From: Zootoca vivipara
Taxonomy: Eukaryota
NCBI RefSeq assembly: GCF_963506605.1
Contig: NC_083282.1
Coordinates: forward strand, 43,772,001 to 43,836,000
Length of the DNA: 64,000 bases
Direction: 5' to 3'
This document shows, piece by piece, positions 15,701 through 16,535 of this stretch. The notes under the pieces were generated by a model. That model saw only the letters and a program-made list of their open reading frames with translations, was not told the origin of the DNA and ran no database searches. Every line of letters starts with the position of its first letter. The first letter of the stretch is position 1. A program made the translations under genes and the position numbers.

Positions 15701-16535
15701 GAAAAACCAGTAGGAGAACACTTCAATCTCCCAGGACATTCTATACAAGATCTCAAAGTAGCTGTCTTACTACAAAAGAATTTCAGAAATAGACTGGAAA
15801 GAGAAGTTGCTGAATTGCAACTTATCACCAAGCTCAAAACCATGGAGGGACCTGGTTTGAACAGAGATATCGGATTCTTATCTCATTATACATGATAAGC
15901 GATCTTCACCCATCTCAACCCTTGCTTTTTCATGCAAAACCATTTGCAGTCGTTTGCGGTCATCAACAGCTATCAGTCAGTCAATCACCCATTTCCACCA
16001 CCCTTCTGAATGATCCCCCCTCCCCATCCCCACCCCTCCACACCCCTTCTCTACATAAGTGCCTGGAAACTTCCATTTCACTGTATCTGAAGAAGTGTGC
16101 ATGCACACGAAAGCTCATACCAAAATAAAAACTTAGTTGGTCTTTAAGGTGCTACTGAAGGAATTTTTTTTATTTAATTTCACGTAACGGAGGCCACGGC
16201 AAGCGAGGCGGAAGAGAGAGGCCGAGACAAAGTGCCGAGGACTGGACGGAAATAGGGGTGGGTAATAAAAACACGGGGGCCGGGCGAGGCAACGCAACGG
16301 GAACCCGCTGAAGGGCACGGGGCGGGGTGTCCTTTGGGGCTTCATTGGGCTGGGCATGGGAAGGCGCCGCAGGAGCTGTGGATCGGGATCCCCCGCGCCT
16401 CACCCATTTCTTCTTATGCATGTGCCGGTGCCGGCGGGGAACGAAGGCGAAGAACGGGACCGTCGGCAAAGCCGCCTCTTTCCGCAGCAGCTGCAGCAGC
16501 AGCCCCTTCCCGCTTGCAGTGCATGCAGCCGCCAT
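9789..16535 (-). CDS. NSUN4: Mitochondrial rRNA m5C methyltransferase NSUN4, 414 aa, 6 exons
   Basis: Exons 16404-16535, 13710-14110, 12575-12729, 11777-11931, 10635-10759, 9789-10065; total 1245 nt, all GT-AG and in phase. Motifs [43 protein letters not shown] and VVYSTCS (both catalytic Cys), C-terminal [10 protein letters not shown]. Confidence 0.97.
10958..11290 (+). mobile_element. tRNA-derived SINE (Squam3-like) with a nested MITE
   Basis: A box TGGTGTAGCGG, B box GGTTCAAATCC, CTCACAGGGTTGTG core; 3' part split by the MITE at 11134-11270. Confidence 0.6.
11134..11270. mobile_element. hAT MITE family A
   Basis: 8-bp TSD CCTTAGAG. Confidence 0.88.
12842..13030. repeat. Inverted repeat, 78-bp arms, 33-nt spacer
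   Basis: 12842-12919 versus 12953-13030, 4 mismatches by hand alignment. Confidence 0.95.
13240..13660. mobile_element. CpG-rich non-autonomous hAT element in NSUN4 intron 2
   Basis: CAGGGCCGGCCCTA...ATAGGCCTG with perfect 8-bp TSD CTGAAGAG (13232-13239 / 13661-13668). Confidence 0.8.
14617..14741. mobile_element. hAT MITE family A variant
   Basis: Same internal palindrome; near-TSD TTCTAGAG/ATCTAGAG. Confidence 0.8.
14834..16173 (+). mobile_element. Penelope-like retroelement (Neptune-type), 5'-truncated, with 3' terminal repeat, in NSUN4 intron 1 (antisense to the gene)
   Basis: Uninterrupted frame 14834-15895: RT C-terminus ([15 protein letters not shown]), Cys linker [15 protein letters not shown] endonuclease ([22 protein letters not shown]). 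Flanked by the 9-bp direct repeat TTAATTTCA (14825-14833, 16174-16182). Confidence 0.92.
16083..16120 (+). ncRNA. Minimal type I hammerhead ribozyme motif in the Penelope terminal repeat
   Basis: GTAT-CTGAAGA-A-GTGTGC/AT/GCACAC-GAAA-GC-TC-ATAC: stem I GTAT/ATAC, core CUGANGA, stem II, GAAA, palindromic AGCU in place of stem III, UC cleavage site. Confidence 0.7.

What the first reader, a model, noticed from the sequence alone, without database searches (positions are those of the whole stretch)
16083..16120. Intact minimal hammerhead ribozyme in a young Penelope element beside the NSUN4 first exon
Seen: GTAT CTGAAGA A GTGTGC AT GCACAC GAAA GC TC ATAC, i.e. stem I, the complete CUGANGA/GAAA/UH core, stem II, and the palindrome AGCU where stem III should be; predicted cleavage after C16116. 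Known: Penelope-like elements carry minimalist hammerheads that depend on such a palindrome to dimerise. Inference: the host element looks recent (open RT-GIY-YIG frame, 9-bp TSD), so this may be a working dimer-dependent ribozyme about 280 nt from the NSUN4 exon 1 donor, on the antisense strand.
Basis: partly seen in the sequence, partly recalled or inferred. Interest (0 to 1): 0.7.

Follow-up and report, generated by a model that had tools for sequence, protein, structure and literature searches.

The report
Ordinary Penelope hammerhead inside NSUN4 intron
This is a real minimal self-cutting-RNA motif of a known kind: the same 38 letters occur 13,219 times in this genome, this copy came with a truncated jumping gene that is absent from at least one other allele of the species, and it lies on the strand opposite to NSUN4, so it likely does nothing to that gene.

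Summary
The motif is present letter for letter at 16083-16120. It is the minimal type I hammerhead of a Neptune-type Penelope element, a kind described in 2014. The identical 38-mer occurs 13,219 times in this genome; intact cores occur once per 62 kb, so one per window is expected. The host copy (14834-16173) is young: about 99% identical to full-length copies, with a 9-bp target duplication and an empty allele in another run. It is 5'-truncated, lacks the RT catalytic motif, carries one hammerhead and lies antisense inside NSUN4 intron 1, so NSUN4 pre-mRNA holds the non-catalytic complement. Across subfamilies the core is fixed except the free position N7, and older copies show compensatory stem changes. 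Cleavage is untested. Copies start about ten times more often just upstream of the ribozyme, at a predicted TATA-driven start, than at the cut site, so templates were probably mostly copied uncut. The scan noted the same kind of motif in other lizard genomes. Verdict: real, ordinary, likely inert here.

The parts
16083..16120 (+). Minimal type I hammerhead motif: stem I GUAU/AUAC, C3-A9 box, extra A, stem II (14-nt palindrome), G12-A15.1 box, AGCU palindrome, predicted cut after C16116
   Evidence: 13,219 identical copies; cleavage untested
16052..16059 (+). TATA-like box (TACATAAG; TATATAAG in other subfamilies); promoter role inferred
   Evidence: mean column conservation 0.95 in 36 long copies versus 0.73 for 16060-77
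16078..16087 (+). Predicted transcription start zone (initiator-like TCA at 16078-80, 28 nt after the TATA-like box), where many family copies begin
   Evidence: 25 of 112 sampled copies begin at 16078-90; 4,722 of 25,378 pass a junction filter here; start not measured
14834..16173 (+). 5'-truncated Neptune-type Penelope-like element, ending in the T-run, without the family's optional ~45-nt tail
   Evidence: 98.8-99.5% identical to 14 of 14 fetched long copies; ends compared
14834..15895 (+). Remainder of the ORF: residues 549-901 (RT thumb region, CX4CXXC linker, GIY-YIG endonuclease), no start codon or catalytic YIDD
   Evidence: (PF01541 E 2.7e-05)
14825..14833 (+). Target-site duplication, left copy (TTAATTTCA)
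16174..16182 (+). Target-site duplication, right copy
   Evidence: X6 record 20 joins 14816 to 16174
14811..14826 (+). 8-nt tandem duplication (GCTAACTT x2) in the left flank, single in the empty allele
16404..16535 (-). NSUN4 coding exon 1 (44 codons, GT donor at 16403)
   Evidence: identity inferred from phase and sequence continuity with exon 2
14111..16403 (-). NSUN4 intron 1, which contains the element in antisense orientation; exon 2 begins at 14110
   Evidence: exon 2 reads in RNA run X22 on the expected strand
9294..9441 (+). Older fragment of the same family with G12 of the GAAA box changed to A

Best explanation
The motif is the minimal hammerhead of a very abundant, young Neptune-type Penelope retrotransposon family, carried as a passenger into NSUN4 intron 1 by a truncated copy, where it likely never cleaves anything. 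Shown: in full-length family members one hammerhead lies 103 nt before the first in-frame ATG of a 901-aa RT-GIY-YIG frame and a second one 3.03 kb later. Inferred: the element's RNA starts a few bases upstream of stem I from a TATA-type promoter in the pseudo-LTR; the ribozyme is conserved by selection on the source elements; it can cut only when two cores pair through AGCU or when the element's protein helps it fold; most templates are reverse-transcribed uncut, often to the RNA's 5' end. This copy arose by target-primed reverse transcription at an AT-rich site, started at the T-run, and stopped after 1.34 kb. NSUN4 transcription reads the complementary strand and splices it out.
For: Copy number: (39,792 downstream anchors). 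Two same-strand hammerheads about 3.03 kb apart in 11 of 14 fetched long copies, a frame of at least 901 aa in 12 of 14; intact core upstream of the ORF start in 24 of 30 loci; RVT_1 and GIY-YIG. Youth: 98.8-99.5% identity, empty allele in X6 and a 3' junction contig in X4. Constraint: core columns 0.987, N7 0.72, upstream flank 0.79 in 36 copies not chosen on the core; 5 of 10 pairs with two-sided change, 87% cells paired, 1 of 500 shuffles as high. 5' ends: 4,722 of 25,378 (18.6%) at 16078-87 versus 293 of 16,051 (1.8%) at 16112-21 with like three-base filters. No pile of read ends at the cut site in 3 of 3 raw RNA runs. Literature: PMC4209133, PMC11167929.
Against: Nothing here measures cleavage or the transcription start. 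The downstream flank is nearly as conserved (0.95) as the ribozyme, so part of the conservation may serve other signals. Of the 25 sampled copies starting at 16078-90, 14 adjoin an inverted partner, so template switching or RT stalling could contribute. 19 of the 100 listed junctions fall exactly at the cut position (against 12 and 8 at the two neighbouring positions; counted by eye), a small excess that would fit occasional cleavage. The RNA run on the window also missed NSUN4 exon 1 and its animal may lack the insertion, so silence of this copy is not shown. Covariation rows were picked with patterns that fix the core and, for most older rows, parts of stem I; the +2 slid control also had 5 two-sided pairs.
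Confidence: 0.85

Rival explanations
1. The copy's own TATA-type promoter fires towards NSUN4 exon 1, 320 nt away, giving an antisense RNA that starts with the hammerhead; this RNA, cut in trans with one of the thousands of family RNAs, or the act of transcription, modulates NSUN4 in carriers.
For: Promoter-like box and predicted start are intact and point at exon 1; the insertion is polymorphic; sense-strand family RNA exists in cells (depth 535 at 16092-16195 in X22).
Against: Zero depth on both strands at 16196-16507 in X22 (weak test). Sense reads just behind the pseudo-LTR of full-length copies are near zero in 3 of 3 raw RNA runs (bins 2040-2259), so the promoter looks silent in these samples. 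About 0.5% of any positions have a copy within 300 nt on a given side, so proximity needs no explanation.
Confidence: 0.06
2. The motif is no longer catalytic in this lineage; it is kept as a structural element (RNA pairing through the 14-nt palindromic stem II, protein binding or an RT stop) rather than as a ribozyme.
For: Two molecules are predicted to pair through stem II (-30.6 kcal/mol) rather than as the double hammerhead (-11.1), and stem I is lost in the 16080-16173 context. Loop 2 is as conserved as the core (0.98). 20 of 112 sampled 5' junctions fall in 16091-16104, 17 of them with an inverted partner. Cleavage was dispensable for insertion in vitro in the anole Poseidon element (PMC11167929).
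Against: The only subfamily-level change inside the 38 nt is at N7, the one free position of a catalytic hammerhead (the other variable column is CpG decay). Nearest-neighbour energies ignore core tertiary contacts and protein help. The related anole ribozyme does cleave with protein.
Confidence: 0.07
3. Chance match or assembly artefact.
For: No Rfam match; folding energy no better than shuffles.
Against: 23,208 matches against 2 controls; fixed position in the element; the 3' junction stands in an independent-looking contig (X4).
Confidence: 0.01

Closest known systems
Minimal type I hammerheads (min-HHR) of metazoan Penelope-like elements (Cervera and De la Pena 2014, PMC4209133; read parts 1-2 of 4, no supplements)
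   Same: Short stem I (4 bp), long stem II, extra nucleotide between A9 and G10.1, G10.1-C11.1 pair, palindromic 15.2-16.2 with no stem III, place in both pseudo-LTRs about 3 kb apart, many solo and opposite-strand copies; reported there for Neptune elements of fishes and for turtle and snakes.
   Different: Far more uniform and numerous here (13,219 identical versus about 9,000 varied motifs in Xenopus); stem II with its loop is a perfect 14-nt palindrome. Their supplements, not seen, may list this very family.
Hammerhead of the green anole Poseidon element PAc (Frangieh et al. 2024, PMC11167929; read parts 1-2 of 4, the whole main text before most methods)
   Same: Lizard PLE hammerhead at the pseudo-LTR/ORF junction; optional 30-40-nt tail from two RT start sites; AT-rich targets; no RNA-seq ends at the cut site.
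   Different: PAc is Poseidon clade and its ORF starts inside stem II; here the protein has the Neptune/Nematis-type linker and the ORF starts 103 nt after the cut site. PAc cleavage was shown (protein-assisted); here it is untested.
Non-LTR retrozymes as PLE derivatives (bioRxiv 10.64898/2026.07.22.740005; read part 1 of 5 and keyword passages)
   Same: The family makes tandem hammerhead arrays, e.g. four 598-bp units at L123.
   Different: The window copy is a single truncated coding fragment, not a tandem array.

Membership tests
PLE minimal type I hammerhead | C3-U4-G5-A6-N7-G8-A9, G12-A13-A14-A15.1 and U16.1-H17 intact | tested here: met
PLE minimal type I hammerhead | Stems I and II, extra base after A9, G10.1-C11.1 pair | tested here: met
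   5 of 10 pairs change on both sides in 20 aligned copies
PLE minimal type I hammerhead | No stem III; palindrome across 15.1-16.1 | tested here: met
   AGCU at 16112-15; G and C invariant in 36 of 36 long copies
PLE minimal type I hammerhead | Located in pseudo-LTRs flanking an RT-GIY-YIG ORF | tested here: met
   11 of 14 long copies carry two, about 3.03 kb apart; the window copy keeps only the 3' one
PLE minimal type I hammerhead | Self-cleavage as dimer or with protein | not testable with these tools
   No read-end pile at the site in 3 raw RNA runs, but fragmented libraries show ends poorly
Rfam canonical hammerhead families | Match to a covariance model with a paired stem III | tested here: not met
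   no hammerhead hit at E<=10; expected for a minimal form
Neptune clade of endonuclease-bearing PLEs | Single ORF with RT then C-terminal GIY-YIG | tested here: met
   901 aa, PF00078 E 3.7e-12 and PF01541 E 5.9e-05 in L133
Neptune clade of endonuclease-bearing PLEs | CX2-5CXXC linker between RT and endonuclease (Neptune and Nematis, per PMC8557442 passages) | tested here: met
   CNKPRCQLC at residue 761, DKG at 308
Neptune clade of endonuclease-bearing PLEs | Placement in the Neptune clade on an RT tree | not tested
   no reference set at hand; Neptune rather than Nematis rests on the vertebrate host (bioRxiv passage)
Neptune clade of endonuclease-bearing PLEs | Partial tandems, inverted 5' copies, optional tail | tested here: met

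The most novel reading that the evidence does not exclude
In this Neptune family the hammerhead is the very first structure of the capped RNA, and its 14-nt palindromic stem II pairs two element RNAs in an inactive state until the element's protein refolds them into the cleaving double hammerhead: the ribozyme is a late decapping or turnover switch, not the tool that cuts out the template. With 13,219 identical motifs, many intact 901-aa copies and insertions still segregating, the family would be a ready system for the open question of what PLE hammerheads do.
Probability: 0.12. Interest if true: 0.55.

Novelty: new member of a known kind. Interest (0 to 1): 0.15.

Why it matters
For NSUN4 it most likely does not matter: one such motif is expected per 62 kb. 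The side result of some value is at family level: genomic copies record 5' ends at the predicted RNA start about ten times more often than at the cut site, which fits the in vitro result that PLE hammerhead cleavage is not needed for insertion and argues against simple excision of the template by the ribozyme. The function of PLE hammerheads is still called unclear (PMC8557442 passage), and this young family offers intact material to test it.

Tried and rejected
Rfam scan: no hammerhead. Folding z-scores: not informative. A second intact hammerhead in the window as cis partner: none; the 9294-9441 copy has G12A. A hammerhead on the NSUN4 sense strand: none. A second family with different stem II at high copy: only 234 matches, nearly all single mutants of the young family. 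Splicing of an intron from the pseudo-LTR (T-run followed by CAG looks like an acceptor): no GT-AG joint among the 15 joints shown of 32; left open, since sense transcripts of full-length copies were almost absent. Circular RNA: one back-joint across the motif in 2 reads (table 5c), with similar joints in run X4 contigs, so rejected as evidence. No indexed holder of the window stretch is on record as RNA; not used as evidence. Paper searches: NSUN4 plus hammerhead gave 0 papers; hammerhead plus lizard plus Penelope gave only PMC11167929; the library lacks most subscription papers. Lunse et al. 2017 on dimer cleavage could not be opened and is known to me only from the review passage. Look-up of earlier findings by sequence gave nothing.

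Full report
Observation. A loose minimal-hammerhead descriptor finds this one hit in the window and any hit in 8 of 200 shuffles. Rfam has no match and the fold is not unusually stable: stems I and II form in the isolated 38-mer, stem II as 5 bp with a CAUG loop.

Host element. The motif lies 190 nt after the stop of an open frame with a GIY-YIG domain. The element spans 14834-16173 between two copies of TTAATTTCA. It is 98.8-99.5% identical to 14 of 14 long copies that I fetched (the 14 were plus-strand picks from the 41 matches or, for one, its unlisted-locus rows). Of these, 12 hold a frame of at least 901 aa and 11 hold two same-strand hammerheads about 3.03 kb apart. The upstream hammerhead cuts, by prediction, 127 nt before the second ATG and 103 nt before the first in-frame ATG; it is intact in 24 of 30 loci. 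The full protein has RT and GIY-YIG domains and the CX4CXXC linker that marks Neptune and Nematis elements (PMC8557442, passages). The window copy holds only residues 549-901, without YIDD, and ends at the T-run, lacking the roughly 45-nt tail present in many copies, which matches the optional tail explained by two RT start sites in PMC11167929.

Age. Run X6 has a 265-nt contig joining 14816 directly to 16174: an empty allele with one copy of the duplicated 9-mer and without an 8-nt tandem duplication seen in the left flank. Run X4 has a contig that runs from the right flank 26 nt into the element. The insertion is therefore polymorphic among runs labelled as the same organism; X4 may be related to the assembled sample.

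Copy number. The core pattern has 23,208 matches against 2 controls, the exact 38-mer 13,219, a downstream anchor 39,792. One intact core per 62 kb means 1.03 expected per window. Finding one near a first exon is unremarkable.

Relation to NSUN4. Exon 1 is 16535-16404 on the minus strand and joins in phase to exon 2 at 14110, which matches human NSUN4. The element sits inside intron 1, antisense, 283 nt from the donor. The pre-mRNA strand has no hammerhead. In RNA run X22 exon 2 reads show the library is stranded; the unique flank 16196-16507 had no reads on either strand, but exon 1 was missed as well and that animal may lack the insertion. The only other family piece found in the window, 9294-9441, has G12 changed to A.

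Constraint on the motif. From 112 copies found through a downstream anchor, not through the core (88 loci from the first 3 Mb of one contig), 36 extend far upstream. In them the core columns are 0.987 conserved, stems 0.98-0.99, N7 0.72, the upstream 33 nt 0.79 and the downstream 13 nt 0.95. Variable columns are 2 of 38 in the motif (N7 and a CpG), 16 of 33 upstream (p 3e-5) and 4 of 13 downstream (p 0.03). Seventeen older, decayed copies picked by eye, aligned with three younger ones, show GCAU/AUGC for GUAU/AUAC in stem I and G-C or A-U for U-A in stem II; 87% of cells pair and 5 of 10 pairs change on both sides. The search patterns fixed the core and part of stem I, rows are related, and one slid control also had 5 two-sided pairs, so this is supporting, not independent, evidence. 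No PLE frame was seen beside the five older copies checked.

How it likely works. A TATA-like box at 16052-59 is conserved across subfamilies and an initiator-like TCA follows 28 nt later, which predicts a start near 16080, three bases before stem I (inference from general promoter spacing, recalled). Copies begin there often: 25 of 112 at 16078-90 against 3 at 16114-19; 11 of 30 among truncated copies without an inverted partner, p 7e-4. Genome-wide, with comparable three-base filters over 10 positions, 4,722 of 25,378 copies break off at 16078-87 and 293 of 16,051 at 16112-21. So reverse transcription usually passed through an intact ribozyme; a small excess at the exact cut position (19 of 100 listed) leaves room for occasional cleavage, and fold-back junctions inflate the upstream peak. 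Three raw RNA runs show no pile of ends at the cut site and almost no sense reads behind the pseudo-LTR. This agrees with the anole element, whose hammerhead cleaves only with protein and is dispensable for insertion in vitro, and with no monomer and low dimer activity for the class. Co-folding predicts that two molecules prefer a 14-bp duplex through the palindromic stem II (-30.6 kcal/mol) to the double hammerhead (-11.1), which a dimer assay must allow for.

Comparison and verdict. All sequence features of the PLE minimal hammerhead are met; cleavage is untested. The kind was described in 2014 including Neptune elements and reptiles; supplements that I did not read may list this family. The genome is vertebrate and probably a lizard (inference from the repeat family and gene content). 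Earlier notes of this scan report the same kind of motif in other lizard genomes and the same run-off-to-start idea; I had noted that idea before looking and count those notes as no support. The finding is real, ordinary and likely without effect on NSUN4.

Noticed in passing
L123:1325-3150 (G000:C1:2777825-2779648): Four head-to-tail 598-bp units, each with an intact hammerhead, the pseudo-LTR and the fused start and end of the ORF: a retrozyme-like array of this family.
   Followed up: partly
window 9294-9441: Older fragment of the same family on the plus strand with a G12A change in the GAAA box.
   Followed up: partly
window 14607-14751, 11129-11277, 20924-21073, 16808-16909: Copies of a hairpin MITE-like repeat that score against Rfam mir-5408 at about half the gathering score; the 14636-14739 stretch is very abundant in RNA and DNA runs.
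   Followed up: no
L133:1960-1985 and equivalents: In full-length copies the T-run is followed by CAG 32 nt before the first ATG, like a splice acceptor; PLEs are known to hold 5' introns, but no spliced read was seen.
   Followed up: partly
L124-L128, L206, L223, L293-L302: An older, decayed hammerhead-bearing repeat family with stem I GCAU/AUGC and a non-palindromic stem II; no coding part seen beside the five checked.
   Followed up: partly
window 16592: Run X4 carries a 20-nt insertion in the GC-rich region upstream of NSUN4 exon 1.
   Followed up: no
family-wide, RNA runs X22-X24: Reads over the motif come more often from RNA antisense to it (depth 2164 versus 499, 613 versus 217, 297 versus 221), which could reflect selection against sense copies in transcripts or a few abundant RNAs.
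   Followed up: no
window 7784-8635 and 27099-28310: A decayed non-LTR RT fragment (RVT_1 E 2e-4) and a 403-aa open frame without Pfam match that looks like an LRRC41 exon (name recalled, not tested).
   Followed up: no
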